64,000 bases of DNA. Origin: Azolla caroliniana. Lineage: Eukaryota; Plantae; Polypodiophyta. The stretch lies in contig JBHGNT010000017.1 of NCBI GenBank assembly GCA_043228905.1, forward strand, positions 4,464,001 to 4,528,000. Reading direction: 5' to 3'. Below, in pieces: positions 13,614-58,014 of the stretch. The position numbers and the translations under genes are program-made. How positions within the stretch are numbered: position 1 is the first letter of the stretch; each line of letters begins with the position of its first letter. Below the pieces are notes generated by a model, which saw nothing but the letters and a program-made list of their open reading frames with translations, was not told the origin of the DNA and did not search any database.

Positions 13614-13644
<31 letters not shown>

Positions 13645-18899: not shown

Positions 18900-19042
18900 T
18901 ACCATATTCTTTTCCATTGACCCCAAACGTCATTTAACACAGTAAGAAGAATAACATTGCCTTTATAAAATTTACAATTTATTATTAGGGAAGCTAGGGT
19001 GGGACCAAACAAAGATCACATTGACCAATCAACAATTTACTC

Positions 19043-26370: not shown

Positions 26371-26401
<31 letters not shown>

Positions 26402-36536: not shown

Positions 36537-36734
36537 ACGTTGTCGTGATGTGGCATGCTTGAGTGTGGGAAAAACCGGCAAAAGGGTGTCAAAATGTGCA
36601 GGTGCAATGTGTGTGCATACAAACTAAATTAATTGTGCACATGGAAAAGAAAAGGAAAACGGAAAGGTGCAAAGGAGGTATAGGAACTCATGTAAAAAGT
36701 AAGAGAGATATAGACTTATATATTATATAAGGGA

Positions 36735-36801
36735 GACTTAATGGACTAGTGGATAGTCACATTGACTACTAACTAAAGGTGCATGTTTCAAGTCCGGTCT
36801 T
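36735..36801 (+). ncRNA. tRNA-like Pol III module in LTR A (further copies at 55176-55246 and 55764-55832)
   Basis: TG-GACT-AGTGGAT-AGTC D-arm (perfect 4-bp stem, A box); TTGACTMCTARYTAA anticodon-like arm; AGGTGCA variable loop; GGTTCAAGTCC-like B box; upstream TATA run. Confidence 0.7.
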
Positions 36802-37404
36802 ACAATGTCGCATGATTTAAGGAATTTTACTCCTTTTGCATTGAAGACAAAATTGGCAACCCCCCCTCCCTTTTTTGGTATAAAAGGAGGTCGATTGGGG
36901 CTCATTTGGGAGGACATTTTGGGAGGAGGATACTATCACCAATTTTCCTTTAAAGCTCTTCATCTTCTTCTTCACCATTTCTCTTTATCACATACCCCTT
37001 CATCCCCTCATTGCCACATGCTCGTCTTCTTCGTGTTGGTACTCGAAGTGCTCGTTTACGGTGCTCGTGAGCCCGAGTTTCATTGGTTCGACGTTGCTAC
37101 GCCCCCGTTCATCGTTCTGAGCCCGTGTGCTCACCGTTCGGGTTGTTGCGGTTCATAGGGGCCTGCATTTTTGTGGTGCTCGTGTGTTCATCTTCGTCGT
37201 GTTCGTGCTCCGTGTTTGGATTTGCTTTTGTCTCTAAGGGCATTTAGTATTTATGTTTTGTTGAGCTTGTGGTTAACTAGAAGTTGCCACATTGTAATCA
37301 AACCATATTTTATAAAGGGCCCTCTTGCGTTGGAATTGAACACATATTTATTTCTTTAGCCAATATCATTCGTGTTTTTTTTCTCTCTCTCTCTTTCTTT
37401 GTTC

Positions 37405-37950
37405 TTGTCCCCTTGTACGTTCGACCGTCTTGTGACAAGGGAGCGTTTCGAGCATGCCCATGCACCTCTCCTCATAAAGACGTACGAGCATTTGTGTGCG
37501 TGTTTGTGTCTTCCTTGTACGTTCGGTGGTCTTGTGACGAGGGAACGTTTCGGGCGTGCCCATGCACCTCTCCTCCTCATAAAGGCGTACGAGCATTTGT
37601 GTGTGTGCTTGTGTCTTCCTTGTACATTCGGTCGTCTTGTGACGAGGGAGCGTTTGGGCGTGCCCATGCACCTCTCCTCCTCATAAAGGCGTACGAGGAT
37701 TTGGTGCGTTTGTTTGTGTCTTCCTTCTACGTTCGGCTGTCTTGTGACGAGGGAGCGTTTCGGGCGTGCCCATGCACCTCTCCTCCTCATAAAGGTGTAT
37801 GAACATTTTGTGTGTGTGTTTGTGTCTTCCTTGTACGTTCGGTTGTCTTGTGACGAGGGAGTGTTTCGGCCGTGCCCATGCACCTCTCCTCCTCATAAAG
37901 GTGTACGAACATTTTGTGTGTGTGTTTGTGTCTTCCTTGTACGTTCGTTC
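37405..37950 (+). repeat. ~105-bp tandem array inside LTR A (5 units plus a partial)
   Basis: Unit CTTGTACGTTCGGTCGTCTTGTGACGAGGGAGCGTTTCGGGCGTGCCCATGCACCTCTCCTCCTCATAAAGGCGTACGAGCATTTGTGTG... Confidence 0.92.
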
Positions 37951-39919
37951 GTCTAGAGACTTCGGCGTTTGTGTCCGAGAACCAACGTGAGACCGGAGAG
38001 ACGGATGGTGGCAAAAAGGAAGACAAGGACAAAGATAGTACAGACAATGACGACGACCAAATTTCCTCGACACTCTTTCCAGACACTTGGGCAATTGCGT
38101 CCGAGAACCGATGTAAGACCCAAGAGATAGGAGGTGATGGCAAAGAACCGAAGGCCGAAAGTAATACATACGGCAAAAGACGGAAGCTAGCGGCGAGGAA
38201 GCAAAGGTCAATGCTGATTCGCGCAACGACAGCAAGGAGGCAAAGATCAATGTTGATTCAAGAAACATTAAGATGGAAATGGCTAAGTGCGGCACGAAAA
38301 AGGCAAACGACATAAATGTATAGGTCCCTCCACACTCTTTCCGGAGACTTGGGCTTTAACTGATGTAAGACCCAAGAGAAGGATAGTGACGGGGAAGAAG
38401 TAAGGGTTAAAGCTAATGCGTGCAACGAAGAATTTGCGCAAAATATGGCAAGGGATAACGATGGCCAAGCGAGCCATGAGGATTTGACGGATGTGATCAA
38501 AACATCTATCAAAGACACTGCTGTGAATGAGTCCAAGTGCCTTGAGCAAGGAAACGATCGAGACAAAGGTGGTACATTTATGAGACTTAAACGATTATCC
38601 TCAAGAAGGGAGCAAGGGGCCATGACAACAAGTCATGGTAAAGCAAAGAAAAGACGAATGATATGGTGGATTGGCTAGTAACCATGATTCGAGTGCAAAG
38701 GAAAGGACAAGCTCGACGTGGAGGAGTCATGCTGATCACCATTGCCGAAATCTCACTTTCTCTCTTCTTGGCACGTACTAGAGGACGTGCGGTTTGGTGG
38801 GGGTGGATGTCGTGAAGATTTTCGGCAATGGTGTGAAAATCACATAAAACATACAAAATCAAGTGTCAATCATATAAAACAATAATAGTGAATATACTAA
38901 TTCTAAGTAAGTTTAATATCTTAGTATAAAAGACGAAGATCTTGAAGAGGTGCACTTTACTACATAAGAAACGGATATCTAAGTGTCAACTTATGTGGGT
39001 AAGAAGTTGCGAAAGAAAAAGAGAAAATTATGAGATATCCCACATAGACAGGACGAATAAGGCTCTCACCATATATAAGGTAGAGCAAAAGTTATTATCT
39101 TTGTGTCTATGTGTGGAGCATAGAGAGTTCAAGGTAACTTGAACTAAGAGTGGAGGTGGCCTAGCTACTTGTAAATGTTTTGGCCAACCAAAACCGGACC
39201 GGCGATGGAGCCGGTGATCCTGCGGCAGCCGGCAAAGCGATGGTGACACACCGGCAACTGGTGATCCAGTGGAACCGTCATCCGGCCGAGAAAGAGACGG
39301 TGAGCCAGTGGAACCGACATCCGACGGCAATCGGCAACCGGCGAGGCGACGACATCCACCGGTAACCGACGACATCCGGTGACTAGATAAATAAATATAT
39401 AAATATATATACATATACATAGAAGGAGGGCAAGTAAGGATTCAAACCTTGCACCTCAAATTAGGAGTCAATTGGCTTACCACTAAGCGAAGATATTTAG
39501 TTAAAATTATATTTCTATCATTGTAGATTTACATATAAATTCTCATACATGAGAGCTAAAATGAGTAACATGGTTATCATGCACCACATGTAATACATGA
39601 GCGCCAAATGGCAAACATGCATTTTATGCATGTCTTGAACCCTCAAATGCATGAGGGCATCTATAAAAGAGGGAATTTAATATTAAGAAGAAAATTTGTT
39701 ATCCTTTGGATGATATACCTTGTTCTTGAAATCTAAAGTCAAGAGTTCTTAATCTCTCTCTCAATCAAAAATCAAGCGTTCTATCTTATCTCAATCTCTC
39801 TCTTTCAATCTATCTTAATTCCTTTCTCGCTAAAGCTTGCGCCAACTTCGAGTCTTTCCGGTCCAGAACCCCGGCAGTTCCGCCTCACGATCCGCGCGTA
39901 ATGACGGATCTTCACGACA
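37951..39919 (+). mobile_element. Element B remnant: non-coding internal 3' region, PPT, 1112-bp 3' LTR (38808-39919)
   Basis: PPT GGTTTGGTGGGGGTGGA; perfect 12-bp inverted termini TGTCGTGAAGAT/ATCTTCACGACA; right flank CCGG. Confidence 0.82.
39428..39497 (-). ncRNA. tRNA-like Pol III module in LTR B (Arg-CCT-like)
   Basis: Minus strand reads GCTT-AGTGGT-AAGC (D arm), TTGA-CTCCTAA (loop), GAGGTG, CAAGG-TTTGAAT-CCTTA (T arm). No acceptor stem. Confidence 0.7.
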
Positions 39920-42097
39920 CCGGAAGACGTTACGAAATCGGATACACCACATCTTGACCGGAGACTTCGGCGGTTCACGTTCCCGACATGCGAAAAAGGA
40001 AGACCCAAGATAAGGGTCAGAGATACAACAAGCCCGAGGAGGATCCTTCATACCGGTTTTAGAGACTCCGGCAGTCGGCCGAGAGCCGGCATGAGACCTA
40101 GAGTGACGAATGGTGGCGGTAAGGGGACAAGGGTGGAAGGCAACAAAAGGCCGATCCGATGGGTTCCTCACACCAATCCGGAGACACCGGCAGTTCAGGC
40201 CAACGTGGCAACATGAGACCGAGAGACAAGGATGGTGGCGGTAGGAAACAGAACCCGATGATGAAGGAAGTGCGGATGGGCGATCCTACGACGATCCTCA
40301 CACCGATCCGGAGACACCGGCAGTTCAAGCCGACGTGGCAACGGGAGACCGAGTGAGAAGGATGGTGGCGGCAAGTGAATGGGATCAAGCAGGAGGGGCG
40401 AAGGCAGAGCGGCAAGGAGGTATCGGGCCAGCAAGGCGGCCACAAAACCAAAACTGGACCTTCCGGCAAGGTCAAAAGTAGGAAAGAAAGGCGTTCCTAT
40501 GAGATCCTCACACCAATTTGGAGACACCGGCAGTTCAAGACAACATGACAACGCAAGACCGAGTGAGAAGGATGGTGGCGGCAGGAAACGGGAACCAACG
40601 ATGCAAGAAGAGCAAACCGGGAGCCGGCAAGGCCAGAGTTGATGAGGGCCGAACCCTTACCGGCCGGTTATGGTTTCGGAAGGAAGTCGGTGAGGCGTAA
40701 GCTCGGAGTAGAACAAGAGTGTGGGAGTGGCCATCGAGGGCCAAAGCAAAGCATGAGTGCTGGACGGTGTTCGGCACAGGCAGGTCGAACAAGGACGACG
40801 GAAGACGGCACACGGCGGTGCCAAGAACAAGAGCGCGGCACACGGAGGCCTTAGAGCGGAACTTTGGCAGTTCAAGCCACCGAGGCAACGTAAGACCAAG
40901 GAGAAGGAAGGTGGTGGCGAGGGGACGAAGGCGATGGGCAACAACACGGGATGGCAACAGGGGCTACACGAAGGGCACCGACATGGAGGTCGGGGTGACG
41001 GCATGCTCTACCATGAAAAAGCGCAACAAGCAAGGGGAAACATCAAGCACGTATTTAGAGAACAACGACGAAACCCAGAAAGAGCCTACCGGAGGTGAGC
41101 GCAGAATGAAGGGAGTTGGTATGACGTGTTTGGGGTGAGGAGAAGGTCGAGCCGGAACAGGAACACTCGCGGTACGCGAGATGTGGCATCCAGCGAGCAA
41201 TCGAAGTAACGGGGGGGGTCTAACTGGAGGACATGCACGACGAGCTAAGGAAGAGAGACCGGGTCAGCAACGGTGTTTGGGAGGGTTGGTCAAAGAAGAA
41301 GGTGTGTGCGGTGGACGTGGTGGATCGGATGGAGCCGACGGGTCGGCGCCGGCAAGGAACCGGCAAGACGGTTGGGTGCCGAGAAGGTGAAGAACCCGGT
41401 TGATCACCATAGCCAAAATCTCTCACCCCTTTCCTTTCTTGGCACATACCGGTGGATGTGCGGTTTGGTGGGGGTGGATGTCGTGAAGATTTCCAACTAT
41501 AGTGTGAAACTGGGGTGGAATGGGCAAGTCGGTGGCGTGCAACATGTGCACATGTATAGTAGGAAACGGTGTATAGAATAAGGAGGAGTATTTATCCCAC
41601 ATTGTAACACATCCCTCTCCTTGGTATACCATTTTTGAGTCTCTTGTGAAGGGGTTGCCCATTTTTGAGTCGTAAGGGTATACCATTTTGTAGAGGGTCG
41701 TTTTGTTAAGAATTTCTAGGGTTAGTAACTGTCTTGTGGTCTTCTTCTTCTTCTCCTTCTTGAGAAGTTGGGCACAATAGCCATGGCGACAAAGCTTTGT
41801 TAGGTTTAACGTCTTTTCTTCTGAGTCTAGCCCGGCTCGAAGCCGGGGTTGTATCTTTTCCTTTGTAATATATACGCTTGTATCTGCTTGTGCATGTTGG
41901 TGTATCCAGTGGTTTTGGGAGCATAGCCCTCCGTTCCCTATGCATAAGAGTCGGTGTCGTGCGCACGCTCTCTCTCTCTCGTGTTCGGTCGCCTCCGGGT
42001 CGTGTTCGGAGTCGGTTTTCTTGGCATTCCCTTTTCCCTCGTCCAAGACCCCCATGGTCCCGCCCCTTTCTACACGCATGCGCGTAATAATGCGACA
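39920..42097 (+). mobile_element. Element C remnant: non-coding internal region, PPT, 619-bp 3' LTR (41479-42097)
   Basis: PPT as above; TGTCGTG...TGCGACA termini; U5 motif CAAGACCCCCRTGGTCCCGCCCC shared with other family LTRs. Confidence 0.8.
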
Positions 42098-42320
42098 ATG
42101 GTGTCGTAGTGTAATTCGCACACTACGTGAAAAATTGCATTTTCGATCTCTCCGGATAGGACATGGAGTACCCAGTGAGAACGGAAGGAGGAACCAGTAA
42201 GAACCGAACCCGGTAAGGAGACCCGGTGAGAACCGGATGAAGAAGGCCGATGAGAGTCTCTCACAGATGAAGATACATATTTGCAAATAGAAGAAAGTAT
42301 AAAAATATATACTACATGCA

Positions 42321-42388
42321 TAGGGCAAGATTCAAACCTTGCACCTCCCTGTTTATAATGTAAAGCCTTACCATTACACTAACATATC
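42321..42388 (-). ncRNA. tRNA-like Pol III module in LTR D (identical copy at 45175-45242)
   Basis: Minus strand reads TAGTGTAATGGTAAGG (A box)...GAGGTGCAAGGTTTGAATCTTG (B box, T arm); 19 nt identical to the LTR B module. Confidence 0.62.
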
Positions 42389-42954
42389 ATTAGTGGTAAA
42401 TAAAAGGAAACGTCCCACATAGAAAGGTAAGTTCACGCTAGGATAAACTTTAGTTAGACGAAAATGCATGATAAAAGAAAAGGCTACGCATGCACATGTA
42501 GCGTGCATGAACACCATAGTCGATAAAACGCATCAAGTTAGAAAAAGTAGGATCACTTTAGAAAAAGCATGTTAGAGAAAACATAGTTAGAGAAAATGCA
42601 TGGATTGTGAAGACTCTCTCATCACTATATAAGGATGAGGAGCACAATGTAATAGGGGTGTGAAATATTTGTGAAATTGGATATATTTCCTAAAACACCA
42701 ATTAATATAATCGTGGGATTCATGAAGTTTTATATAATCTATCTCTTCCAATCTATGATAAATTGTTATTAGGATTCTAAATATTAATAAATCTAATAAT
42801 CTATACTTGTGGGATTCACAAGTTTCTATCTCTCTTTCTAATAATCTATACATAACCATAAAATTGTCTCAAATTCTTCCTCCTCCTAGTCCAAAACCCC
42901 AACGGTTCCCACCTGACTCACGCAACGATCCGGCGCTGAAAGGCACGACACAAG

Positions 42955-42972
42955 TGGTGAACCCGACGTGAA
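42955..42972 (+). promoter_or_regulatory. primer binding site complementary to tRNA-Trp(CCA)
   Basis: TGGTGAACCCGACGTGAA is the reverse complement of the plant tRNA-Trp 3' end TTCACGTCGGGTTCACCA (tRNA sequence recalled, not searched). Confidence 0.85.
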
Positions 42973-45805
42973 AGCGGGTGGCAAGGAGATGGAGAATCAA
43001 CAAGAGGCGATGAGCATAATGATGATGATGATTGGGCGGATGCAACAAGAACAATGCTTGATGTCGGAGATCAAATCGGAAGTAGAGCGGCTTGTGCAAA
43101 GAAACGGGCAATTTAACGGAAAGGATGTGACACGTTATCTATGTGACTACAAGGGGGCGATGATGTGACATGGGATACCAGAAGAATTGCAAGTGATATC
43201 CTTCAGTCGGGTGGCCACGGATGAGCTACAAGAGAGAATCCACAAGATACAGCAACAAAACCCAACATGGGGGTCCTTTAAAGAAGCTTTACCAAAGGCA
43301 TATGATTACGATAGACCGAAGGGACGAGATCGGCGAGAGTTTGATGAATGGGTGGCATCGGAGAAGACCCAATGAAGTGCAACACAAGCATTCCTAGAGT
43401 TCGAGCATCATTTTGCTCAACTCTTGGAGTGGGAACAAAGATTGTTGGGGGAGGATAAAGTCCTAATGTTCGTAAGATCGATCGATTGATCAAAAAGAAA
43501 GGATGGACATTGGGATCCAACTCGAAGATGATGACGGTGCAAATGGCCTTTCCGAGGATTGGGCTAAAGTCGAAAGAGTATGCCGAAGACACGATAAGAG
43601 GAAGATGAGAATATCGCCGGCAACAACATGGCCTATAAGGGATGATCAATTAAGGATGAACGATGTGGCTTATACGAAGGCCGAAATACAATCTGATGGT
43701 ACCACGGGAGAGAGTGTGGAATAAGTCACCCTCTTGTCTTGCAAAAGAACGATGGCCAAGGATAAGGTTGATGACTTGAGAGTGGCGAACACCACTTCAA
43801 GAATGGAAGAAGGTTTCGGAATACAAGTATCCGAAACATCGGGTGAAAAGGGGTAAGCATAATCGATGCTTGCATGATCGAGGGAGATAAAGAGTGCAAG
43901 GCGGACTTGATTGAGGAGGTCCCCACGAAAGATGACATCGAATCGGAGGTGGCTATGGACGAAGCGGATGGCCGTATGAAGACTTTCCCACCACTAGTTC
44001 TAGAGACTTCGGTAGTTGCGTTCGAAAGACAACCTGAGACCGAAGAGATGGAAGGTGGCGGAGAGAAAACAAAGTTTGAATCCGATGCATACGACGGAGA
44101 GATAGCCAAGAAGGTGGCTATGGGTGAAACAACGAAGAACGATAATACCGAGGATTCCTACCCACTAATCATAGAGACTTCGGCGGTTGTGTTTGAGAAG
44201 CAACGTGAGACCGGAGAGACGGGAGGTGGCAGCAAGAAAAGTAAAGACGGAAGCTGGTTCGGATGGAAGATGATCTGGATGGAATTCCGATCCAAAAGAA
44301 AGCCGACCCGAAAGGGGGTAGACTCGGTCAAAACCGATCCACCGAGTCCAATTCGGCCGAACGCGAATATGGATGGAAGCCGACCTAGCCGAAAGCCGAT
44401 TGGACGAGACCGATCCGGAAAGAAGTTAATCTGACTCAGTCGGAGGTTGAACCGGTCGAGGCCAGTGAACACGAGGAAAAGAAAGCCAACCGAAACCGAA
44501 ACTGATAGATCGAACCCGGCCCGGACGGGGGCCGACTCGATCGAAACCGATCAACCGAGTCCGATTTGGCTGAATATGAATCCGATCGGAAGTCGATCCA
44601 ACCAAAAACCGATCAAACGAGACCAATCCGGAAAGAAGGTAATCCGACTCAAATGGAGGTCGAGGCAATCGAGATCGGTGAACACGAGCAAGACGCCAAA
44701 CAGGCACACTACCACAGATGACAAGGGCCAAACGGATTTGAAGAGTGTTACCAAGGATGAGATCTCGACAAAGGAGGGCTATAACATGAAGATTGTCAAC
44801 TCTAACGCGAGATTAGAGTTGAGAATCAAGCAAGACCGACGACCAAGCACGACCGGCGACGAAACCAACCGGGCGGAGATCGGACGGACAAGACTAACAA
44901 TCACTGATAGCTTCGGCACATACCAGAGGATGTGCGGGTTCGGAGGGGGCAAGTGTCGTAGTGTAATTTGCACACTACATGAAAATTTGCATTTTTGGTC
45001 TCTCCGGATTGGACATGGAGTACCAGATGAGAACCGGAAGGAGGAACCGGTAAGAACCGAACCCGGTAAGGAGACCTGGTGAGAGCCGGATGAAGAAGGC
45101 CGATGAGAGTCTCTCACCAGATGAAGATACATATTTGTAAATAGAAGAAAGTATAAAAATATATACTACATGCATAGGGCAAGATTCAAACCTTGCACCT
45201 CCCTGTTTATAATGTAAAGCCTTACCATTACACTAACATATCATTAGTGTTAAAAAAAAGTAAACGTCCCACATAGAAAGGTAAGTTCACGCTAGGATAA
45301 ACTTTAGTTAGACGAAAATGCATGATAAAAGAAAAAGCTACGCATGCACATGTAGCGTGCATGAACACCATAGTCGATAAAAACGCATCAAGTTAGAAAA
45401 AGTAGGATCACTTTAGAAAAAGCATGTTAGAGAAAACATAGTTAGAGAAAAAGCATGGATTGTGAAGACTCTCTCATCACTATATAAGGATGAGGAGCAC
45501 AATGTAATAGGGGTGTGAAATATTTGTGAAATTGGATATATTTCCTAAAACACCAATTAATATAATCGTGGGATTCATGAAGTTTTATATAATCTATCTC
45601 TTCCAATCTATGATAAATTGTTATTAGGATTCTAAATATTAATAAATCTAATAATCTATACTTGTGGGATTCACACGTTTCTATCTCTCTTTCTAATAAT
45701 CTATACATAACTATAAACTTGTCTCAAATTCGTCCTCCTCCTAGTCCAAAACCCTAGCGGTTCCCACCCGACTCACACAACGATCTGGCGCCGAAAGGCA
45801 CGACA

Positions 45806-46783
45806 ACGACACCTTACGCTTCATCTAGGACCTACAACCTATTAATCAAGTGACAATCCGAAATGCAGGGGTCAGGCCGAATGTTGACGAATTCGCCGAG
45901 GCCTTCACTGGAAGGTCTATTTATTCGATGGTTGATCTATACTCATGGTATGATCTATTCCAACTAGCCGTGGAGAGTAGGGACGTCACCACGATTTGGA
46001 CCCCTATCGGCCTAGTGCGAATGTGTACCTTGCCACAAGGAGGCACTAACTCTGTAGCCCACATGGTAAATGCAATGAACAAGGTATTGAGAGATTGCAT
46101 CCCCGACATCACCATGTTATTCCTCGATGACATCCCCATAAAAGGGTGCTCTGAAGCGGAGAAAGATGAAACCTTGGACAAGGATGGGTGCAGACGTTTT
46201 GTGGTAGATCACATCTCTGATTGCGGGAAGGTTCTACAAAGACTTGAAGATGCACGTTTGACCTTCTCGGGTGAGAAATTGGCATTCGGTCAACCAGAGA
46301 TTCTTGTGGTGGGACACTTGTGCGGGGTTTACGGATTTGAGGGCGAAAGCGACATGGTGTTTGAATATGAGGATGTTGCTCTTGACTTCTTTAAGACGGC
46401 CCAAGCGTCTATAGATGATCGAGATGTGCGAGTACTCCACGCCTTCAATGAAAGTGAATACGAAGGGGAGTGGCTACACATTGGCAAGTTCTTAAGCTCA
46501 ATGACAGTGGATAGGTCATGGTTGAAGGAGGAAGCACAAAGAGCCCGAACGAAAGCATACAAGTACTTCGTACGAGGGGGATTCCTCTGGAGGCACCCGA
46601 AGAGAAGGACAGGGATGCCACAACAAGTGGTCATAAAGGAAGAGGACCAGACAACATTGGTGACTAAGTTCCACGAGAGTCCTTGATTGGGCCATAGAGG
46701 AACGTGGGCAACATTCGAGAAGTTAAAGGAGAAGTATTGGTGGCCAGGAATGTACAAGGATATAGCCCATTTCGTGGAGACGT
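45806..46783 (+). pseudogene. Element A pol remnant (RT, RNase H deleted, integrase N-terminus)
   Basis: DEFAEAF...LPQGGTNSVAH...FLDDIPIKG; jumps from GHLCGVYG to post-RNase H sequence; GHRGTWATFEKLKEKYWWP. Confidence 0.88.
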
Positions 46784-47525
46784 TGTCGCGTTTTTACGCG
46801 CGTGCGTGTGAAAGGGGTAGGACCACGGGGGTCTTGAACCGAGGAGCCAGAGAGAGAGAGACAGAGAGAGAGATTTGTAGATACGCGAAGTGAGAAGGAG
46901 GGATACAGAACGTAACACTTGATTTCAATAACAAGAGATTGCAATGACAAGAATACAACTTTGACGGTTACAACCGACAAGGCGGCGATGGACCCGACAC
47001 GGGGATCCTACTCACACACACAGACAACACTCGCTCGACTCCCAGAAACAAAAACAAAAGGGTGGAGGGGGGGGGAGAGCCTCTACTGGACGCACACGGG
47101 TTGTCCACGAAGCAGAGGCAACGAACTCCCAACCCACAAAGACCGATGACCGGAGGAGAAGAGAGAGCTCGGCACTCAGATCTGCAGCAACACTTCGTCC
47201 TCCCTAGCGCCCGATGCCCTCTCCCCTCTCTCCTCTCCTTTTTATATCCCCATCCTCCTGTCAATTCGCTTTATTCCCTATCCCTCTTGACAGAGATACG
47301 CACAATCCCCTAATAAATGTGTGCTACTTAGTATTTACATCCACCGATCCATTTATGAATCGTGTACAAAATATCAAGTCACGCGTCCATCTGTGTAATA
47401 GCCGGTTCATGTGCTTTTCTCTCCGATTCCGCCTATGGCCGGTTTTCTTCACCACATCCACCCCCAACAAACCGCGCATCCACCAACATGCGCTAGAGAC
47501 GGGTAGATACCGAAGAAAACCGGCC

Positions 47526-50500
47526 TCACTCGTTGCTCTCCGATTCTCCACCGGACCCGAACTGATCGTCGTTGTCGCTCCCGCTCGTAGGCTCCGGCTT
47601 GTCTTCGAACCACTTTTTGAACGCTTTGATCCGCTTCCCGGCCACCGGCACCGCTAACCGTGTCCCGTCGAGTTCCGCGAGGTGGTACGTGCCGTTGTCG
47701 TTCGCGCTCATCACCGTGTAGGGCCCGAACCATCTCCTAGCGAACTTTCGCACCGCCTTGTGCTGATTGTCGAGGCTGCTGTCGTATACCAAGACCCAGT
47801 CGCCTTCCTCGATCTTCTTTGGTTGCAACCAGTGCGTCCGGTTGAACTGGGTCTTGTTCCGCTCCCTTGCCGCTCACAGCTTTACCTTTGCCTGTATCAC
47901 GTCCTCCGGCCTCCGCTCGAGTTGCCGAATCCGCGCCACCAGCAACTCCTCCCGGCTCATTTCGTCCTTCCAATCTACTGCCGCCCATGAAGAAACCGTC
48001 CATTCCACCGGCACGATCAGCTTCTGTCCGTACATCAGCTCTGCCGGCATAAACCCTGTCACCGAGCTGTGCGTAGTTCGGTCCGCCCATAGTGCGTAAG
48101 GAAGGAGCCGCGGCCGATTCCTGACCTGTCCTCCGCATGCACGCACCAACACCTTTACGATAGGCTCGTGCCCTCGTTCTACCTTTCTGTTCGCCTCCGG
48201 ATTGTACGCCGTAGTGAGGGAGAGTTTGACGCCTAGCCGGTCGAACAGCTCCTCAGCTTCCCGCGCATCCAGCTCTCCCCGGTCCGCCACAATCCTCCCG
48301 ACGCACCCGTACCGACACACTACTTCTTCGATCAGGAACCGGCATACCGCCATGGTTGTCTTGCTTTGCAGTGCACGACCTTCCACCTGGTTCGTTAAGT
48401 CTTCCCGTGCAAGCATCATGTATCGCATCTGTCCTACCCCCATCGGCATCGTCACCAAGTCCACCATCCACTTGAAATGAACCGTAGGCGGGTAGGTCGG
48501 GTGTAGCTCGTCCCAGTGTCGGACTATGGAGTGCATCTGACAGCTTTCACAAGTCGTTACGAACCGATGCACGTCCTGGTACAGCCCCGGCCACCAGTAC
48601 TTCTCCTTCAGCTTCTCGAACGTGGCCCACGTTCCGCGGGGCTCTCGTGAAATGCGGCCAATAGTTCCCCATGTTCTTCTTTCTTTGCCACTACTCGGAG
48701 TGGGATGCCGCTTCTCTTCTTTGGGTGCCTCCATATGCACCCGTCCCGCAGGAAGAATCGGTACGCCTTTTTCGTACCCAGCTCGCCTCCTCTTTCGCCC
48801 ATGCTGCGTCTGGCGTCATCGTCCGTAGGAACCTCCCGATTTCGTCGTACCTGCTTTCGTCAAATTCGTTAAGCGCCGGAGTGTTCCCTTTCCTCGTCGT
48901 TACGTTAGCCGACCCGAAGAAGTCCTCGGCGACTTCTTCATCATCCGAAACCATGCCGTCTTTGTCGTTGAACCTTGCCCTCGAAAGCATGTCGGCCATG
49001 GCGTTGTCCTTTCCGGAGATGTGCCGTATCTCCGGGTTCAGGGACTTAATGTACGCTATCCACCGGAGCATTGCTAGGTCCGGCGTTGCGCATCCGGAAA
49101 CCATGCCGAGTATCGGTAGACAATCCGTCTCGATGATCACCTTCGTCCTGATCAGATAATCCTTGTCGGCCTTGACTGCCGAAACGACACCCCAAAGTTC
49201 GTGCTTAACTTGGGCATATCCTCGCTGCCGCTCGCTCAATACCTTCGCCACGAACCGGATCGGGAACCATACGCCGTCCTTGTCCTCCTGACTGATTACC
49301 CACCCGATCTCGGTCGGGCTGGTGTCCACCGTCACACAGATGGGAACATCCTTGCCGTAAACCGCTTTACGGAGAGCCGGCGCTACCGTAAGCGCCTCCT
49401 TTAGTCTCCGTACCGACTCCGTGTGTTCCGTCCTCCACTCAAAGCTACGCCCCTTTTTCAATAGTCCGTAGAGGGGTTCCATGACATGTGCGTAGTGTGG
49501 GATCCAGATGTGGTAGAACACGCATGCTCCCAAGAATCGGCGGACCTCCGTGACCAAATCGCAGTCATGCTTCATCGCGAAGATGGCTTCTACCTTGGCC
49601 GGAGATGGTTTCCGACCGTATGGTCCGCATAGGTGCCCGACGACCATGATCTCTGATTGCCCGAAGGCCGACTTTTCCCCGGAGAAGGTGAGCCTCGCGC
49701 CTTCTAGTCTCTGCAACACCTTCTCGCAGTCATCGATGTGGGACGCCACGAAATTCCGACATCCGTCCGGCCCGATTGCCTCGTCCCTTTTCTCCACCGG
49801 GCATCCCCTGATCGGGATGTCGTTTAAGAATGGCATGGTGATGTCCGGGATACAATCCCTGAGCACTTTGTTCATCGCGTTCACCATGTGAGCCACTGAG
49901 TTCGTCCCTCCTTGCGGCAGGGTACACATCCGCACTAGGCCGAGAGGAGTCCGCATCGTCGTAATGTCTCTGCTCTCCATGGCTAGTTGGAACTGATCGT
50001 ACCCCGAGTACAAATCACCAATAGAATAGATCGACCTTCCAGCGAAGGCCTCCGCGAACTCGTCTATGGTCGGTCCGATTCTTGCATTACAGATGGTCAC
50101 CTTCTTGACCGGTTGCAGGTCCTGAATGAAGCGCAACGTGCCGTTCTTCTTTGGCACCGTAAACCATCGATTCGAATACGGGGCACTCAACGGTTCGAGG
50201 ATGCCCATCTCCACCTTTTGCTTCAGGAGCTCCATCAACTTCGGGATGTGAGCTCTCGGCACCGGAATAGGCTTGAGATTCCACGATACATGCGGTACCG
50301 TGAAGATCACCATCAATTCGACAATTGTCGGGTCTACGCACCCGATCTCCTCCGGTGAGAATGCGAAAGCCTTCCCGTGCCTCTCGAGCATTCTCCGAAA
50401 CCGGTCCTCCTCCGCCGGCAGTAGAAAGCCGCCCCCACCGACCTTGAGCTCCCGTAGCGTTATGTCGGTGAACCAGTGCCCTATGCCAGCCGGATTCCGT

Positions 50501-50983
50501 AAACTTGGGTCCGACGCGACCCCTTTCATCCGCTCCTCGCTACCCTCCGACAAGGGTGCCGCGACTGGCCTCACCTTCCAGTCCACAGTCTTGTACTTTG
50601 TATCCACGCAGGCCATCCGATCTGACCCGATCCTTTCCCCGAAGTCCGTATGACTTCGTACATTCCCATTGACCCTACCGGAACGGTCTGGTCTTCTCTA
50701 AGGTCCTCACCGATCACCTTTCGCAGTTCGCTCAAGGTGTCATCAAAAGAGACTGCCTCCACGGTGCCATTGATGTCTTCGTCGGGGAAGAGGACTCCGC
50801 GTCCCCTAAGCCGCTCCTCCGCTCGCTTCCTCTCCCAGCCGCTGACGCCAGTTATAGTACAACCTCCGTTGTCAGAGAACCAAAATTTCCTACCTATGGT
50901 ACAGGTCTTCTTCCGTACTGTACATTTGTGGGGTTCTTTCCGGGTGTCCGGACTATCGCGGCCCCACCCCTTGATAGCCCTCT
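47526..50983 (-). pseudogene. Element E pol (RT-RNase H-integrase), disrupted
   Basis: ORF 48691-50616 (YSNRWFTVPKKNG, DLYSGYDQ, LPQGGTNS, VTVDTSP, ETDCLP, NAMADMLSR); integrase in 47874-48740 and 47526-47828 (GPY motif). Confidence 0.92.
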
Positions 50984-53118
50984 CTAAAAATCCCCTCGGG
51001 TTTCGCCGACGAGGGTTTTGCGGTTACGCTCATGGTTTGGTCGCACCGTTAAGAACTGGACCGAGTGACGCCCGTCCTGGCTCTTGACTCTTGCATAGGC
51101 TGAACTGTTGTCCAGCACCTTGGTCTCCATCCGTGCCGCCGTGATATACAGTTCTCCTAGTATAACCAGATGCGAGGACGTCTCTTGTACGAAGAAGTGC
51201 TGGTCGATCTCGACATCGCTGATCTTCACCCGTACGTTCGGACAGGCCCCATGTAGTTCTTCCGTGGCGCGCGTCGCTGCCCGTATCTACCAGCCATGCT
51301 TGGTGTTGATCGGCCATTTACCCTTCTTGTAGAAATCCATGGACATCAGGTTGATTTCAGATCCATGGTCTACCAACGCCACCACTAGTTCCAGAACGTT
51401 GCCGATCCGTACAAGGGTTTCCGTAGTTGCCCTGGCCCAATGCGGCTTCGTGTAGTGGCTTCCCGCCAGCTCGTCTTCTAGCGCTTCGTCTTCCAGGTGC
51501 GTGGTCCGCACATCCACCGATTTCTCCGGCTCTGGCTCCGTTGAGAGCCTCTTCCGCTTCACCAAGTTTACGATAGAGTCGTGGAACTCCCTCTTGGCGA
51601 TTCCAAGCACCTCCCGCAATGACAGCTCCACTTTGTTGTCGAGGATACGTTCCTCTAGGACCTTTCGCAGGTTTGTGGTCCTTTCGATCTCGGTGCTCAA
51701 CTGAAACCCCGCCTGCTTCTTTCCGTCCTGCGTGCCTGGGTTGCCGGCACCGGCCGGTTTTAGTCCGAACCGGGTCTCATACCTCTGCGGGGGGCCAACC
51801 CCTCTAGCCTTTCCTGCCCGTTTGTCCTCCACCAGAACCTCGTAGTTCTGGCAAGCGGCTTCTACGAAGCCCGTTTTCTCTTCGACCGGATCGTCCCAAC
51901 CGGTGACCTCCATGACCCGATGTTCCGCGCGGTCCGCCTCTTCCTTCTTCAGCCGAACTCCGGAGAGACCTTCTAGCACCAGCGGCCAGAATCCGGAGTC
52001 CTTCACCTTCCGGGTCTCATCACCCCCGACCCGAATTCCCGCCGACATTGAGTAGTTAACGGCTTCGACGTGCCGTGCCGCGGCCTCTTCCATCAACCTC
52101 TTCATTCCGCCGCGCCCCGTATTCAGTTCTAGGGCTCTCCGGGTCTCGCTCGTGTGCACCCGCCCGTTCCAGAGGTACACCACGTTGGTCCTGAGCGCGT
52201 CGGCGAAATCCGCACAATCCTTCCGAATGTGACCAATCGCGTCACACCACATGCACCGCTGCCCAGTTGGTGGCCTCCGGTCGCGAGGTTGTTCGCCGCT
52301 GTCTCTCCAGGCCTGTGCGATCTGCAGGTCGCACACCATCTGTGTCAGCTCCTCTAGAGCCGCTCCTCCAGATGGACCTCTGACCACGTCGTTCGATGCC
52401 GACCCCGACTCTTGCCAGATTCGGGTCTCTTCCTTCCTACCGGCCGGCACCGATAGCAGCTCCTCGAGCCTCCTCCCCGGGACCGGCCTCAACCCCGACG
52501 AGCTTCCGTCGCTCCAATCGCGCCATTTGTCGAAACGGCTGCAAACCCATTTTACCATGGCCCAGTCTGTTGTGAGCCCTTCGTCCATTTCCAATAGGGG
52601 ACCCACCTTTTCCTTGTCGAGCGTGTCCACCGACTTGACAAACAGCAGTACTCGACTTGTTTCGAGCACCGTCCGGTCCAACGTCGACAGCCGCGCGAAC
52701 CTTTTTCGAACTCCTTGAGGAGCACCGACGTGTTCCTCCCCTTTCTGGGGCTTTCCACCCACGCCATGAAGTACCGCCTCGACAGCCGAAGCGAATCGTC
52801 AAACCCATACTTCTCGAGGAGCTGCAACTCGAACTCCTCCCAAGTCTGGCATCCGGCCAGCACCTCGAGCACCTCCGCGTGGATGCTCGGCGTCACCACC
52901 CGAGGGAATCCGGACAGCCACCTATCCACCGGGATATCCCTCATGATCATTTCGGCCCGGTAAGCCTCCAAATAACTTGTGGCGTCTTTCCCTCCGAAAC
53001 GGCCTATAGAGCCGACGATCGATTCAATGGCTCTGCCGAGGGTACCCGTCCCTTCACGAGCGCTCACCAACCGGTCGACGGCCACCGCCATTGCCTCTGC
53101 TAGCTCCGATCCCCTCAT
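50984..53118 (-). pseudogene. Element E gag-protease ORF (disrupted)
   Basis: ORFs 52552-53118, 51287-52762 and 50984-51229; CMWCDAIGHIRKDC knuckle; ALVDHGSEINLM protease; VILG flap motif. Confidence 0.88.
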
Positions 53119-53837
53119 CTTTCGACTCCTTTGCCGCCCCGTTCACGCCGGGTTCACCAAATATGTCGCGTTGTTACACGTGTGTGTGTATGAAAGGGGG
53201 CCGGACCACGGGGGTCTTGAACCGAGGAGCGAGAGAGAGAGACAAAGAGAGAGATTTGTAGATACGCGAAAGGAGAAGGAGGGATACAGAATGTAACACT
53301 TGATTTCAATAACAAGAGATTACAATGAGAAGAGAATACAACTCTGACGATTACAACCGACAAGGTGGCGATGGACCCGACACGAGGATCCTATCACACA
53401 CACAGACAACACTCGCTCGACTCCTAGAAACAAAACAAAAGGGTGGGGGGGGGGGGGGAGCCTCTGCTGGAAGCGCACGGGCTGTCCACGAAGCAGAGGC
53501 AGCGAACTCCCGACCCACAAAGACCGACGACCGGAGGAGAAGACAGAGCTCGACACTCAGATCTGCAGCAGCACTTCGTCCTCCCTAGTGCCCGATGCCC
53601 TCTCCCCTCTCTCCTCTCCTTTTTATACCCCCATCCTCCTGTCAATTCGCTTTATTCCCTGTCCCTCCTGACAGAGATACGCACAATCCCCTAATAAATG
53701 TGTGCTACTTAGTATTTACATCCACCGATCCATTTATGAATCGTGTACAAAATATCAAGTCACGCGTCCATCCGTGTAAGAGTCGGTTCATGCGCTTTTC
53801 TCTCTGATTCCGCCTATGGCCAGTTTTCTTCACGACA

Positions 53838-54878
53838 ACGTGTGAAAGTTGCCAGATACACTCAAACATACGCCATAGGGACGAGTTGCACCCAACCTAC
53901 CTACTCACCATACACTTCAAATGGATGGTGGATTTGGTTTCAATGCCAATGGGGGTGGACCAAATGAAATATTTTGTGCTAGCAAGAGAAGACCTAACTA
54001 ACCAGGTAGAAGGGCGAGCCTTAACAAACGAAACGACGACGGGGGTGTGTAAATTCTTACTCGAAGATGTCATCTGCCAGTATGGATGTGTGGGAAAGAT
54101 AGTGGCTGACATAGGAGAGTTGAACGCTCATGAAGCCACAGAGCTCTTTGAATGACTTGGAGTGAAACTCTCTCTGACGACCGCTTATAACCCAGAGGCT
54201 AATGCCAAGATAGAACGTGGACACAGGCCTCTCGTCAAAGCCATTGTAAGAGTTTGCGATGGGCAAGTCGGGAAATGGCCTCGGTTACTACCTAATGCCT
54301 TGTGGGCCGACAGAATAACTCACAACTCAGTTACAGGTTTCATGCCAACTGAACTCATGTACGGACAAAAGCCGGTGATGCGCATTGAAGACACGATCGC
54401 ATCATGGGTAGCGATGTCGTGGCAAAACAAGATGAGTTGAGAAGAGCTTCTAGCAACAAGGATAAGGCAACTCGAGAGAAGACCTGAAGACTTGGAGTTG
54501 GCGAAGGAGAGGTTAGAAGCGGCTAAGTTACATAACAAAGCCCGATTCGACAAGACACACCGACAACGCCCTCAAAAGATCGAAGAAGGGGACTACGTGA
54601 TTGTGTATGATAGCAGTCTCGACAATCAACATAGCTCAATGCGGAAATTCACAAAGCGATGGTTCAGGTTGTACGTGGTAACGAGTGCAAACGATAATGG
54701 CACCTACCACCTCGCTGAACTTGATGAGACCAAGCTAGCAGTACCAATAACAGGGAAGCGGGTCAAAATCTTCAAAAAGCGGCACGATAGTAAGCCAAAC
54801 CTAGATGACCCTAACAAAGATGAAGACAAGCAAACGACGAGCCGCGGGGTCAAAGAGGAGGAAGAAATGGACTATTGA
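53838..54878 (+). pseudogene. Element A integrase remnant
   Basis: Continues the frame interrupted at 46783; WMVDLV, TTAYNPEANAKIERGH and DNGTYHLAEL motifs, with stops. Confidence 0.9.
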
Positions 54879-54938
54879 CTACCTTCAACACGCCATTCTT
54901 GGCACATACTGGAAGATGTGCGGTTTGGTGGGAGTGGA

Positions 54939-56403
54939 TGTCGTGATGTGGCGTGCTTAAGTGTGGGAAAAACCGGCGAAAGGGGATCAAAATGTACATG
55001 TGCAATGTGTGTGCACACAAAGTAAATTAATTGTGCACATGTAAAAGAAAAAGAAAAAGGAAGAGTGCAAAGGAGGTATAGGAACTCGTGTAAAAAGTAA
55101 GAGAGAAGAGAGAGGAAAAGTAGAGAGGAGACAGGCTATGATTTTATAGATATAGACTTATATATTATATAAGGTAGAGTTAACGGACTAGTGGATAGTC
55201 ATATTGACTCCTAGTTAAAGGTGCATGACCGTTCAAGTCTGGTCTTACAATGCCATGTGATTTAAGGAATTTTATTCCGTTTGCATTAAAGACAAAATTG
55301 GCAACCCCCCCTCCTTTTTTTCCTATAAAAGGAGGTCGATCGAGGCTCATTTGGGAGGACGTTTTGGGAGGAGGATACTATTTTCATTTTTCCTTCGGAG
55401 CTCTTCATCTTCTTCTTCACCATTTCTCTTTATCTCATACCCCGTCATACCCACATCGCCACGTGCTTGTTTACGGTGTTCGTGAGCCCGAATTTCGTTG
55501 GTTCGAAGTTGCTTCACCCCCGTTCATCGTTCGGGTGGTTGCGGTTCGTAGGGGCCAGCATTTTTGTGGTGCTCATGTGTTCGTCTTCATCGTGTTCGTG
55601 CTCCATGTTCGGATTTTCTTTTGTCTCTATGGGCATTTAGTATTTATGTTTTGGTGCAAAGGAGGTATAGGAACTCATGTAAAAGGTAAGAGAGAGGAGA
55701 GACGAAAAGTAGAGAGGAGACAGGCTATGATTTTATAGATATAGACTTATATATTATATAAAGGAGACTTAATGGACTAGTGGATAGTCACATTGACTAC
55801 TAGCTAAAGGTGCACGGTTCAAGTTCGGTCTTACAATGTCGCATGATTTAAGGAATTTTATTCCTTTTGCATTGAAGACAAAATTGGCAACCCCCCCTCC
55901 CTTTTTTGGTATAAAAGGAGGTTGATTGGGGCTCATTTGGGAGGACATTTTGGGAGGAGGATACTATCACCAATTTTCCTTCAAAGCTCTTCATCTTCTT
56001 CTTCACCATTTCTCTTTATCACATACCCTTTCATCCCCTCATCGCCATGTGCTCTTCTTCTTCGTGTTGGCACTCGAAGTGCTCGTTTACGGTGCTCGTG
56101 AGCCTGAGTTTCGTTGGTTCGACGTTGCTACGCCCCTGTTCGTCGTTGTGAGCCCGTGTGCTCCCCGTTCGGGTGGTTGCGGTTCATAGGGGCCTGCATT
56201 TTTTTGGTGCTCGTGTGTTCATCTTCGTCGTATTCGTGCTCCGTGTTTGGATTTGCTTTTGTCTCTAAGGGCATTTAGTATTTATGTTTTGTTGAGCTTG
56301 TGGTTAACTAGAAGTTGCCACATTGTAATCAAACCCTATTTTATAAAGGGCCCTCTTGCGTTGGAATCGAACACATATTTATTTCTTTAGCCAATATCAT
56401 TCG

Positions 56404-56475
<72 letters not shown>

Positions 56476-58014
56476 TTCTCGTCCCCTTGTACATTTGGTC
56501 GTCTTGTGACAAGGGAGCGTTTCAGGCGTGCCCATGCACCTCTCTTCCTCATAAAGGCGTACGAGCATTTGTGTGCGTGTTTGTGTCTTCCTTGTACGTT
56601 CGGTCGTCTTGTGACGAGGGAGCATTTCGGGCATGCCCATGCACCACTCCTCCTCATAAAGGCGTACGAGCATTTGTGCATGTCCTTGTGTCTTCCTTGT
56701 ACGTTCGGTCGTCTTGTGACGAGGGAGCGTTTCGGGCGTGCCCATGCACCTCTCCTCCTCATAAAGGCGTACGAGCATTTTGTGTGTTTGTTTGTGTCTT
56801 CCTTCTACGTTCGACCGTCTTGTGACGAGGGAGAGTTTCGGGCGTGCCCATGCACCTCTCCTCCTCATAAAGGCTTATGAGCATTTTGTGTGTGTGTTTG
56901 TGTCTTCCTTGTACATTCGGTTGTCTTGTGACGAGGGAGTGTTTCGGCCGTGCCCATGCACCTCTCCTCCTCATAAAGGTGTACGAACATTTTGTTTGTG
57001 TGTTTGTGTCTTCCTTGTACGTTTGTTCGTCTAGAGACTTCGGCGTTTGTGTCCGAGAACCAACGTGAGACCGGAGAGACGGATGGTGGCAAAAATGAAG
57101 ACAAGGACAAAGATAGTACAGACAATGACGACGACCAAATTTCCTCGACACTCTTTCCAGAAACTTGGGCAATTGCGTCCGAGAACCGATGTAAGACCCA
57201 AGAGACAGGAGGTGATGGCAAAGAACCGAAGGCCGAAACTAATACATACGGCAAAAGACGGAAGCTAGCGGCGAGGAAGCAAAGGTCAATGCTGATTCGC
57301 GCAACGACAGCAAGGAGGCAAAGATCAATGTTGATTCAAGAAACATTAAGATGGAAATGGCTAAGTGCGGCACGAAAAAGGCAAACGACATAAATGTATA
57401 GGTCCCTCCACACTCTTTCCGGAGACTTGGGCTTTAACTGATGTAAGACCCAAGAGAAGGATAGTTTCGGGCGTTTCGGGCGTGCCCATGCACCTCTCCT
57501 CTTCATAAATATGTATGAGCATTTGTGCGTGTGTTTGTGTCTTCCTTGTACGTTCGGTCGACTTGTGACGACGGAGCGTTCAGGCTTGCCCATGCACCTC
57601 TCCTCCTCATAAAGGCATACGAGCATTTGTGTGTGTGTTTTATGTCTTCCTTGTACGTTCGACATCTTGTAACAAGGGAGCGTCCGGGCATGCCCATGCA
57701 CCTCTCCTCCTCATAAAGACGTACGATCATTTGTGTTTGTGTTATCGTCCCCTTGTGTGTTCATATTGGGTGCTCATCGTTGCTTGTACCCATTTGATCA
57801 CTTGGCTCATGCGGTGATCTCGAAAACTCGACAAGTCGAGATCAACGAAAGCCACTGGTCCTACAAAAGGGGCAACGAGCCCTTACTCGGGAAGGGGTCG
57901 GGAAGTAGTATTATCATAAAGCAAACCTCGGGTCTTCTCTATCCCTTCGTACTCCTTAGTCAAAGACTCTCGTGGTCCCGCCCAAATAACACACACGCGC
58001 GAAACTTTGCAACA
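54939..58014 (+). repeat. Element A 3' LTR (about 3.1 kb) with internal duplication, (CT)n at about 56409-56472 and 105-bp arrays at 56480-57028 and 57464-57745
   Basis: Follows the PPT; homologous to 36541-38386; ends with the family U5 motif. Confidence 0.85.

What the first reader, a model, noticed from the sequence alone, without database searches (positions are those of the whole stretch)
36735..55832. tRNA-like Pol III cassettes built into the LTRs of three subfamilies of one Ty3/gypsy family
Seen: six ~70-nt tRNA-like modules sit inside LTRs. LTR A carries them in sense (36735-36801, 55176-55246, 55764-55832); LTR B (39428-39497) and LTR D (42321-42388, 45175-45242) carry them in antisense. 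Each has an A box, with perfect D stems GACT/AGTC in A and GCTT/AAGC in B, plus a shared AGGTGCA variable loop and a B box/T arm. A and B share TTGACTCCTA (CCT, Arg-like loop). None has a good acceptor stem, poly(A) tail or TSD. The module is in both LTRs of A and of D (identical in D, whose LTRs differ by about 4% elsewhere), so it is replicated with the element rather than being a later SINE insertion. Established: Cassandra TRIMs carry 5S rRNA-derived Pol III promoters in their LTRs. I recall tRNA-bearing LTRs (Ajax) only from oomycete non-autonomous elements; this needs checking. Inference: a plant Ty3 lineage, including pol-encoding element A, retains a TFIIIC-binding cassette in otherwise dissimilar LTRs and in both orientations. 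It could act as a Pol III promoter, an anti-silencing insulator, a source of tRNA-like small RNA, or a landing pad for sister integrases.
Basis: partly seen in the sequence, partly recalled or inferred. Interest (0 to 1): 0.85.

Follow-up and report, generated by a model that had tools for sequence, protein, structure and literature searches.

The report
tRNA-derived cassettes in Phygy retrotransposon LTRs
Several high-copy subfamilies of a plant jumping gene carry a worn copy of a tRNA gene next to the promoter in their end repeats, in either direction, where it likely serves as a protein-docking DNA element rather than making a tRNA, a role that is untested and not yet described in plants.

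Summary
The six modules exist. A sequence-only profile of 44 real tRNAs ranks D, D and B first in the 64 kb (E 5e-5 to 2e-4; next 0.9; 0/300 shuffles). The A copies fail that test and are tied in only by homology to B. Rfam and ARAGORN miss all six, and most stems are broken. The elements match Phygy Ty3 (tRNA-Trp primer site, 4-bp NCGN target). The cassette is the only internal block shared significantly by LTRs A, B and D. It recurs in metagenome relatives, and B has a second, decayed copy downstream of its TATA box. Corrections: the known tRNA-bearing LTR group is Helenus, not Ajax; A1/A2 are not one element's LTR pair; D1/D2 identity is uninformative; LTRs of the intact-type elements lack the cassette. 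It cannot be a Helenus-type promoter for the genomic RNA (antisense, or followed by T-runs). Best reading (0.45): a captured tRNA promoter kept as a DNA element beside the LTR promoter. Against: B and D carry a C56T B box, A modules diverge at the flank rate, and relatives lose it. The scan earlier found Helenus-type TRIMs in other genomes, not this layout.

The parts
36541..37410 (+). LTR A1, U3-R part (starts TGTCG, left flank ACGT); followed by a 106-bp tandem array at 37411-37960; no PBS follows
36735..36801 (+). tRNA-derived module A1, sense, in U3; AT-rich TATA-like tract just upstream, T4 runs at +24 and +33, T6 at +70, LTR TATA box at 36878
37960..38807 (+). non-coding internal segment ending in the polypurine tract (38791-38807) of element B
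38808..39919 (+). LTR B (TGTCG...CGACA, right flank CCGG), TATA box at 39661
39428..39497 (-). tRNA-derived module B, antisense, in U3; B box with T at position 56, enclosed by a 9-bp hairpin
41479..42097 (+). LTR C, same family, no module
42102..42950 (+). 5' LTR of D, TATA box at 42625
42321..42388 (-). tRNA-derived module D1, antisense, in U3; T5 run 16 nt downstream in its own sense; 19-bp exact match with module B
42955..42972 (+). primer-binding site matching the 3' end of plant tRNA-Trp(CCA); followed by a gag remnant, no pol
44954..45805 (+). 3' LTR of D (96.4% identical to the 5' LTR; flanks ATGG vs ACGA, no TSD)
45175..45242 (-). tRNA-derived module D2, identical to D1
45806..46783 (+). 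decayed RT-to-integrase remnant (most of RNase H missing, 2 stops) of the element that ends in LTR A2
46784..53837 (-). nested element E with gag, RT, RNase H and integrase, Trp-type PBS, 4-bp TSD ACGT, LTRs 92.8% alike, no module
53838..54938 (+). decayed integrase remnant (3 stops) and polypurine tract (54922-54938)
54939..55653 (+). LTR A2, a variant 78% identical to A1, TATA box at 55323
55176..55246 (+). tRNA-derived module A2, sense, in U3
55654..57833 (+). LTR A3, 5'-truncated, fused to A2, 93.6% identical to A1 up to 57471; likely LTR end near 57833
55764..55832 (+). tRNA-derived module A3, sense, in U3

Best explanation
The modules are decayed tRNA-gene copies built into the LTRs of high-copy, non-coding or decayed subfamilies of a Phygy-like Ty3 family, and they were likely kept as a DNA element, a predicted TFIIIC/TFIIIB-type docking site, that helps keep the neighbouring LTR TATA promoter open, rather than as a folded RNA or as the promoter of the genomic RNA. 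Shown: tRNA ancestry of B and D, homology of all modules, LTR residence, position within about 40-250 bp of the TATA box, loss of the cloverleaf. Inferred: one capture, probably of a SINE-type head, followed by inversion, duplication and U3 swapping between subfamilies, and purifying selection on the boxes for at least part of that history. Untested: factor binding and any effect on transcription or methylation. In B and D the B box has lost C56, so there the site may be weakened or used by another factor.
For: Apart from termini and a 21-bp low-complexity match, the module is the only significant match between LTRs A and B (E 0.001) and between B and D (19 bp exact; 0/300 shuffles reach 19). 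Conservation is patchy in the way a promoter predicts: across 6 subfamily representatives the B box is 0.75 identical, the A box 0.56 and the flanks 0.44-0.50. The sequence-only model scores the modules far better than the structure model (B: E 1.8e-4 vs 0.65). The same antisense U3 position holds in B, D, L008 and L048. Module A is covered like the rest of the LTR in 3 of 4 runs, with no depth spike; most laid depth reads G at 36745 and A at 36792, closer to tRNA boxes than the window copy. In X1, 39430-39488 shows one polymorphic site at low depth while 39489-39506 shows several. Contigs in X2, X7 and X11 and loci L008 and L015 keep C56. Precedents: divergent tRNA-like A/B boxes drive the Leishmania U2 gene (PMC4950102); Pol III complexes act as barriers in yeast (PMC13578239).
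Against: B and D read T at position 56 and no variant reaches 8% there in any of 4 runs; C56 is critical, since C56G abolishes TFIIIC-dependent TRE5-A targeting (PMC5391098; the effect of C56T is not tested). Substitution rates in module A are no lower than outside: A1/A2 8/67 vs 58/601, A1/A3 4/67 vs 20/530. D vs L048 is 60-76% in the module and 65-80% in other blocks, and L048's B box has decayed. B's R-region unit has decayed. Only 2 of 9 complete related LTRs carry a module; L013 has D's gag and U5 with a different U3. In X11 the A module is the least covered part of LTR A, with contigs joining across it. In X1 module B has roughly a quarter of the depth of the block downstream. The anticodon loop, irrelevant to TFIIIC, is also conserved (0.64). 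[quoted passage not shown]
Confidence: 0.45

Rival explanations
1. Neutral relic: a tRNA-derived SINE head landed in an ancestral LTR and has since only hitch-hiked in master copies, spreading by U3 swapping.
For: Module A diverges at the flank rate; C56T is the majority state in B; decayed in L048 and in B's R region; absent from 7 of 9 complete related LTRs and from E, C and F; largely replaced in X11's A-type LTRs.
Against: It survives as the only alignable internal block between otherwise unalignable LTRs, with the boxes kept and the middle changed. The hairpin round the B box shows a two-sided change in L008. No young free SINE was seen.
Confidence: 0.27
2. Pol III mini-gene: the cassette makes a short RNA of about 90-110 nt that acts on the element or the host, like the Pol III miRNA genes in foamy-virus U3.
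For: A has an AT-rich upstream tract, both boxes and T4 runs at +24/+33; D has T5 at +16. These are the elements plant tRNA genes use. Precedent in PMC3993851.
Against: No fold is shared across subfamilies; B has no T4 run until +235; C56T in B and D.
Confidence: 0.11
3. RNA-level element in the 3' U3 of the genomic RNA: a hairpin for packaging or strand transfer, or a second pairing site for the primer tRNA as in Ty3's bipartite PBS.
For: Antisense modules make the genomic RNA complementary to a tRNA. B, D and L008 form an 8-10 bp hairpin round the B box (-12.3 to -13.8 kcal/mol) with one two-sided change, and an X2 contig shows the perfect stem. Ty3 precedent in PMC5371799.
Against: Duplexes with tRNA-Trp are not special: rank 7-31 of 44 tRNAs, 16-28 other LTR windows pair better, and 26-179 of 300 shuffles match them. 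A and L015 are in sense orientation; L048 lacks the hairpin.
Confidence: 0.1
4. Helenus-like Pol III promoter for the genomic RNA, through the sense unit just downstream of the TATA box in B-type LTRs.
For: L015's B-type LTR has a well-kept sense unit there (E 0.0045); B has no T4 run from its TATA box to the LTR end or in its internal segment.
Against: The unit is decayed in the window's B. The six reported modules are antisense or followed by T-runs. T4 runs are also rare in the intact-type element E (4 in 5.7 kb). The elements are far longer than Helenus (311-1263 bp).
Confidence: 0.05
5. Landing pad: TFIIIB on the cassette attracts sister integrases, as tRNA genes do for yeast Ty3.
For: Known for Ty3 and TRE5-A (search listing; passage).
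Against: None of the 7 junctions examined lies within 160 bp of a module, and the nearest are the carriers' own ends. Targets fit the NCGN preference of Phygy.
Confidence: 0.02

Closest known systems
Helenus (TRIMp3), Kojima 2024, PMC10886601 (read: parts 1-4 of 6 of the main text; supplement passages)
   Same: tRNA-derived sequence inside LTRs, conserved round boxes A and B, not a functional tRNA, unrelated to the primer; non-autonomous carriers; one plant case (Selaginella).
   Different: Helenus are TRIMs of 311-1263 bp with LTRs up to 323 bp; the entries seen carry the unit in sense, and it is proposed to promote the genomic RNA. Here the LTRs are 0.85-1.1 kb or longer with a TATA box, elements are about 3.7 kb with gag or pol remnants, and the unit is in U3 antisense, U3 sense or R sense. 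The paper notes that 'not a few' Repbase LTRs contain tRNA-like pieces but followed up only short TRIMs.
Cassandra and Ajax (5S-bearing TRIMs; as described in PMC10886601)
   Same: Small-RNA-gene promoter captured into an LTR, probably through a SINE.
   Different: 5S-derived, miniature; Cassandra's RNA starts in the captured unit.
Phygy non-chromovirus Ty3/gypsy, Neumann et al. 2019, PMC6317226 (passages; supplement row)
   Same: 4-bp NCGN target, tRNA-Trp PBS (81%), no chromodomain or extra ORF, compact gag-pol.
   Different: Described from Physcomitrella; no tRNA-like LTR unit is mentioned in the passages seen. Phylogenetic placement was not tested here.
Foamy-virus U3 Pol III miRNA cassettes, PMC3993851 (passages)
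   Same: Pol III promoter elements and terminators inside U3 of a Pol II LTR.
   Different: These make hairpin pre-miRNAs shown by experiment and are not tRNA-shaped; no such hairpin or transcript is shown here.
tRNA-like upstream elements of trypanosomatid U2 snRNA genes, PMC4950102 (abstract, section 20)
   Same: Degenerate tRNA-like unit with conserved A/B boxes upstream of another promoter and needed for it.
   Different: There the target gene is Pol III-transcribed, the spacing is nearly fixed (104 bp) and the first five B-box bases are invariant; here spacing and orientation vary and C56 is lost in B and D.

Membership tests
Helenus (TRIMp3) | tRNA-derived sequence inside the LTR with boxes A and B | tested here: met
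   for B and D; A by homology
Helenus (TRIMp3) | miniature element (about 0.3-1.3 kb) with no coding remnants | tested here: not met
   LTRs alone are 849-1112 bp or longer; D is 3.7 kb with a gag remnant; A2 follows a pol remnant
Helenus (TRIMp3) | unit placed to promote the genomic RNA (sense, no terminator before the element body) | tested here: not met
   B and D antisense; A followed by T4, T4 and T6 within 70 nt; only B's decayed R unit is placed suitably
Helenus (TRIMp3) | PBS, PPT and 4-5 bp TSD | tested here: inconclusive
   D has PBS and PPT but no TSD; A and B are single LTRs in a nest
Helenus (TRIMp3) | Pol III transcription | not testable with these tools
   no RNA holder listed
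Phygy Ty3/gypsy | 4-bp TSD with NCGN preference | tested here: met
   E has TSD ACGT; other flanks ACGT, CCGG, ACGA; two are one change away (ATGG, CCAG)
Phygy Ty3/gypsy | tRNA-Trp PBS | tested here: met
   D's PBS matches ARAGORN-called tRNA-Trp(CCA) genes
Phygy Ty3/gypsy | gag-PR-RT-RH-INT order, no chromodomain, aRH or extra ORF | tested here: met
   Pfam on element E shows RT, RNase H, integrase zinc finger and core, no chromodomain; protease not separately hit
Phygy Ty3/gypsy | falls in the Phygy clade on RT/RH/INT trees | not tested
   no Physcomitrella reference was fetched; named homologues are Riccia and Adiantum proteins at 49-62%
tRNA-derived SINE | free copies with tail and TSD | tested here: not met
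   no depth spike or listed loose ends at the borders of module A (loose-end list cut); module B less deep than its flank; no further significant copy in 64 kb; old, diverged SINEs not excluded
functional tRNA gene | cloverleaf with acceptor stem; RF00005 or ARAGORN call | tested here: not met

The most novel reading that the evidence does not exclude
Phygy retrotransposons of seed-free plants have turned a captured tRNA promoter into an orientation-independent TFIIIC element that flanks their own Pol II promoter (on both sides in B-type LTRs) and shields or boosts it against silencing: the first transposon-borne tDNA insulator in plants, present in thousands of copies.
Probability: 0.22. Interest if true: 0.82.

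Novelty: new variant of a known kind. Interest (0 to 1): 0.5.

Why it matters
It extends tRNA capture by LTRs from miniature TRIMs to full-size, TATA-bearing LTRs of a very abundant plant Ty3 lineage, in layouts that cannot promote the genomic RNA, so any function must be of another kind. [quoted passage not shown] This family offers a natural experiment for that question: thousands of LTRs with an intact, a C56T, a decayed or no cassette, whose methylation, accessibility and copy success can be compared. If neutral, it is still a useful marker of U3 swapping and a source of false tRNA/SINE calls.

Tried and rejected
No whole genome was held, so no genome-wide copy alignment was made. Rfam at E<=10 gave no tRNA; relaxed ARAGORN was noise. 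The structure model R1 did not single out the modules (B third at E 0.65, A2 eighth at E 2 of 12 hits). Folding z-scores of predicted transcripts were 0.08 to -1.95, but real tRNA-Trp scored -0.87, so the test is insensitive. Pair counts on alignment A2 (56.5% paired, above all 500 shuffles) include the real tRNA and three related A copies and were not used as evidence of a conserved fold. Isotype is unresolved: only two plant isotypes (Trp, Val) were at hand, Trp ranked 1-36 of 44, and the CCT loop occurs in A2, B, L008 and L015 only. Primer-pairing test negative. D1/D2 identity rejected as evidence. T-run scarcity is family-wide. Viral contigs held no match to two patterns and no RT relative. 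No RNA holder listed, which is no evidence on expression. In one search positions 39340-39429 were skipped as repeats. The metagenome scan sampled 5 of 64 parts and gave 124 loci, 80 with long flanks; 20 were classed as LTR+PBS, and L006, L040, L089, L119 and a few others with PBS-like ends fell outside that filter. One search covered 19 of those 20 plus L006. A recalled report of a tRNA-like sequence in HIV-1 U3-R was not found in the one paper checked and is not relied on. The claim that this layout is not in print rests on searches of an open-access library; Repbase entries and subscription papers were not searched.
Full report
Setting. The region is a nest of one Ty3/gypsy family inserted in a LINE remnant. 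All LTRs begin TGTCG and end CGACA and share a polypurine tract. From left to right: LTR A1 (36541, no PBS after it), a non-coding internal segment with PPT, LTR B (38808-39919), another internal segment with PPT, LTR C (41479-42097), element D (42102-45805; PBS, gag remnant, no pol), a decayed RT remnant, element E on the minus strand (46784-53837; gag, RT, RNase H, integrase; TSD ACGT), a decayed integrase remnant with PPT, LTR A2 (54939-55653) and a truncated LTR A3 fused to it. The PBS matches plant tRNA-Trp(CCA) genes recovered from metagenomes, and the flanks fit NCGN. These are the marks of Phygy: 4-bp NCGN TSD and 81% tRNA-Trp PBS (PMC6317226, passages and supplement row). Named homologues of E's pol are Riccia and Adiantum proteins, so the host is likely a seed-free land plant. 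No genome was held.

Are the modules real? They are at the stated places. Rfam and ARAGORN do not call them. I built two models from 44 real tRNAs (40 phage, 4 from metagenome loci). The sequence-only model ranks D2, D1 and B first among 12 hits in 64 kb (E 5e-5, 5e-5, 1.8e-4; next 0.93), and 0 of 300 shuffles of LTR B or D reach the real score. The structure model does not single them out. In tRNA register the acceptor stems pair at 0-3 of 7 and the anticodon stems at 2-4 of 5. The A copies are not significant alone. They are homologous to B on the opposite strand (37 bp, 81%, E 0.001), and a profile without A finds A3 at E 0.035. All eight modules align to tRNA-Trp almost without gaps, with A14, G18, G19, U33, U55 and A58 invariant. 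So tRNA ancestry is shown for B and D and inferred for A. The isotype is unresolved.

Is it part of the LTR? Contigs of four public runs show LTR A at summed depth of about 1e4-6e4 in X1, against about 32 for a junction that appears unique to this locus. Depth is not a copy number, but this points to hundreds or thousands of copies. The module is covered like the rest in X1, X2 and X7, without the spike a young free SINE would give. At 36745 and 36792 more than 90% of laid depth reads letters closer to tRNA boxes than the window copy does. In X11 (another organism) the A module is the least covered part (30-63 against 106-10160) and single contigs join across it. Module B lies at 5e4-1.1e5 in X1, against 1.3e5-4.8e5 for the block downstream, so only part of the B-related LTRs carry this version.

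Relatives. Of 124 metagenome loci, 20 were LTR+PBS and 9 of these hold a complete LTR. Two of the 9 carry the antisense U3 module: L008, a 2.0-kb internal element without gag or pol hits (E 7e-4), and L048, D-like and decayed. L013 has D's gag and U5 but another U3 with no module. Loci whose gag resembles intact-type E lack it, as do E, C and F in the window. L015 holds a separate truncated B-type LTR with a well-kept sense unit just downstream of the TATA region (E 0.0045). Its collinear counterpart in the window is a decayed unit at 39705-39758 (2 of 1000 shuffles score as high). B thus has two units pointing away from each other round its TATA box.

Selection: mixed. For: apart from termini and a 21-bp low-complexity match, the module is the only significant block shared by A, B and D; B and D share 19 bp exactly (0/300 shuffles); the B box is the best conserved part across six subfamily representatives (0.75 against 0.44-0.50 for flanks); the hairpin round the B box shows a two-sided change in L008. 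Against: module A changes as fast as its flanks (8/67 vs 58/601; 4/67 vs 20/530); D vs L048 is no better in the module than in other blocks; B and D read T at position 56 with no variant at 8% or more in four runs, although some contigs and L008 and L015 keep C56. C56 matters for TFIIIC-dependent targeting (C56G; PMC5391098 passage).

Mechanism. The six modules cannot promote the genomic RNA: B and D point away from it, and A meets T4, T4 and T6 within 70 nt, before the LTR's TATA box. Pairing with the primer tRNA, as in Ty3's bipartite PBS (PMC5371799 passages), is not supported. No insertion sits next to a module. What the units share is boxes and spacing without a fold, either orientation, and a place about 40-250 bp from the TATA box. 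That fits a DNA-level element best. Precedents are the tRNA-like A/B boxes upstream of the Leishmania U2 gene (PMC4950102, abstract and section 20) and Pol III barriers in yeast, a function not described in plants (PMC13578239 and PMC9540200, passages). I put this at 0.45, a neutral hitch-hiking relic at 0.27, a foamy-virus-like short Pol III RNA (PMC3993851, passages) at 0.11, an RNA hairpin or pairing element at 0.10, a Helenus-like promoter through the R unit at 0.05 and a landing pad at 0.02. Binding and any effect are untested.

Known context. That paper also says 'not a few' Repbase LTRs contain tRNA-like pieces but studied only short TRIMs, so tRNA pieces in long LTRs have been seen, not characterised. 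A 2026 sugar-beet paper mentions only Cassandra and Helenus/Ajax for such captures (PMC13570524, passages); PMC9744471 (passages) added nothing. These elements fail Helenus membership on size and promoter placement. Searches (listings) found no description of this layout. Earlier scan notes record Helenus-type TRIMs in other genomes and a different tRNA-Arg feature in another Ty3 family of this genome, but not this cassette.

Verdict. A real feature and a new variant of tRNA capture by LTRs; ancestry shown, function open, selection evidence mixed. Interest 0.5.

Noticed in passing
window 39705-39758 and L015 346-402: A second tRNA-derived unit, in sense just downstream of the TATA box, so B-type LTRs have divergent units on both sides of the promoter; decayed in the window, well kept in L015.
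   Followed up: partly
window 53212-53222, 46829-46839 (minus strand), about 9490; L068 910-933, L069 2428-2452: U5 of the intact-type LTRs E and F and of several relatives carries a lone B-box-like motif about 55 bp before the LTR end, conserved between subfamilies; C has a variant. Not significant on its own.
   Followed up: no
window 42094-42105: LTR C ends 4 bp before LTR D begins, as expected if D inserted into the NCGN duplicate left by C; repeated use of one target may build head-to-tail arrays.
   Followed up: no
window 37411-37960, 56485-57038, 57472-57762: LTR A contains a 105-106 bp tandem array into which the same B-type internal segment is joined in A1 and A3, a replicated chimeric junction.
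   Followed up: partly
window 60827-60848: A-box-like stretch resembling the modules in or near a Copia LTR (E 0.32 with the module profile); no B box.
   Followed up: partly
window 29299-29338 (minus): Weak tRNA-like 5' half in AT-rich DNA (E 0.93), possibly an old SINE relic.
   Followed up: no
window 6210-6244 and 7880-7921: The same B-box-containing hairpin flanks both ends of the fragment at 6210-7921, directly beside a Copia LTR end and an integrase remnant; top hit of the structure model (E 0.06).
   Followed up: no
L070 297-347 and 1578-1627: Decayed tRNA-like copies near tRNA-Trp genes in another plant contig score against the module profile (E 6e-4, 2e-3) while intact tRNA-Trp genes do not.
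   Followed up: no
window 9600-19000, 26000-33000 vs the nest: CpG observed/expected is 0.42-0.49 in host DNA and 0.76-1.11 in the elements, consistent with young insertions in a methylated genome.
   Followed up: no
L088 174-289: A 116-bp LTR with B-type termini between a PPT and a Trp PBS: possibly a miniature Phygy derivative.
   Followed up: no
window 21506-25321: Long (GAT/TAT)n low-complexity tracts within ORF-like stretches.
   Followed up: no
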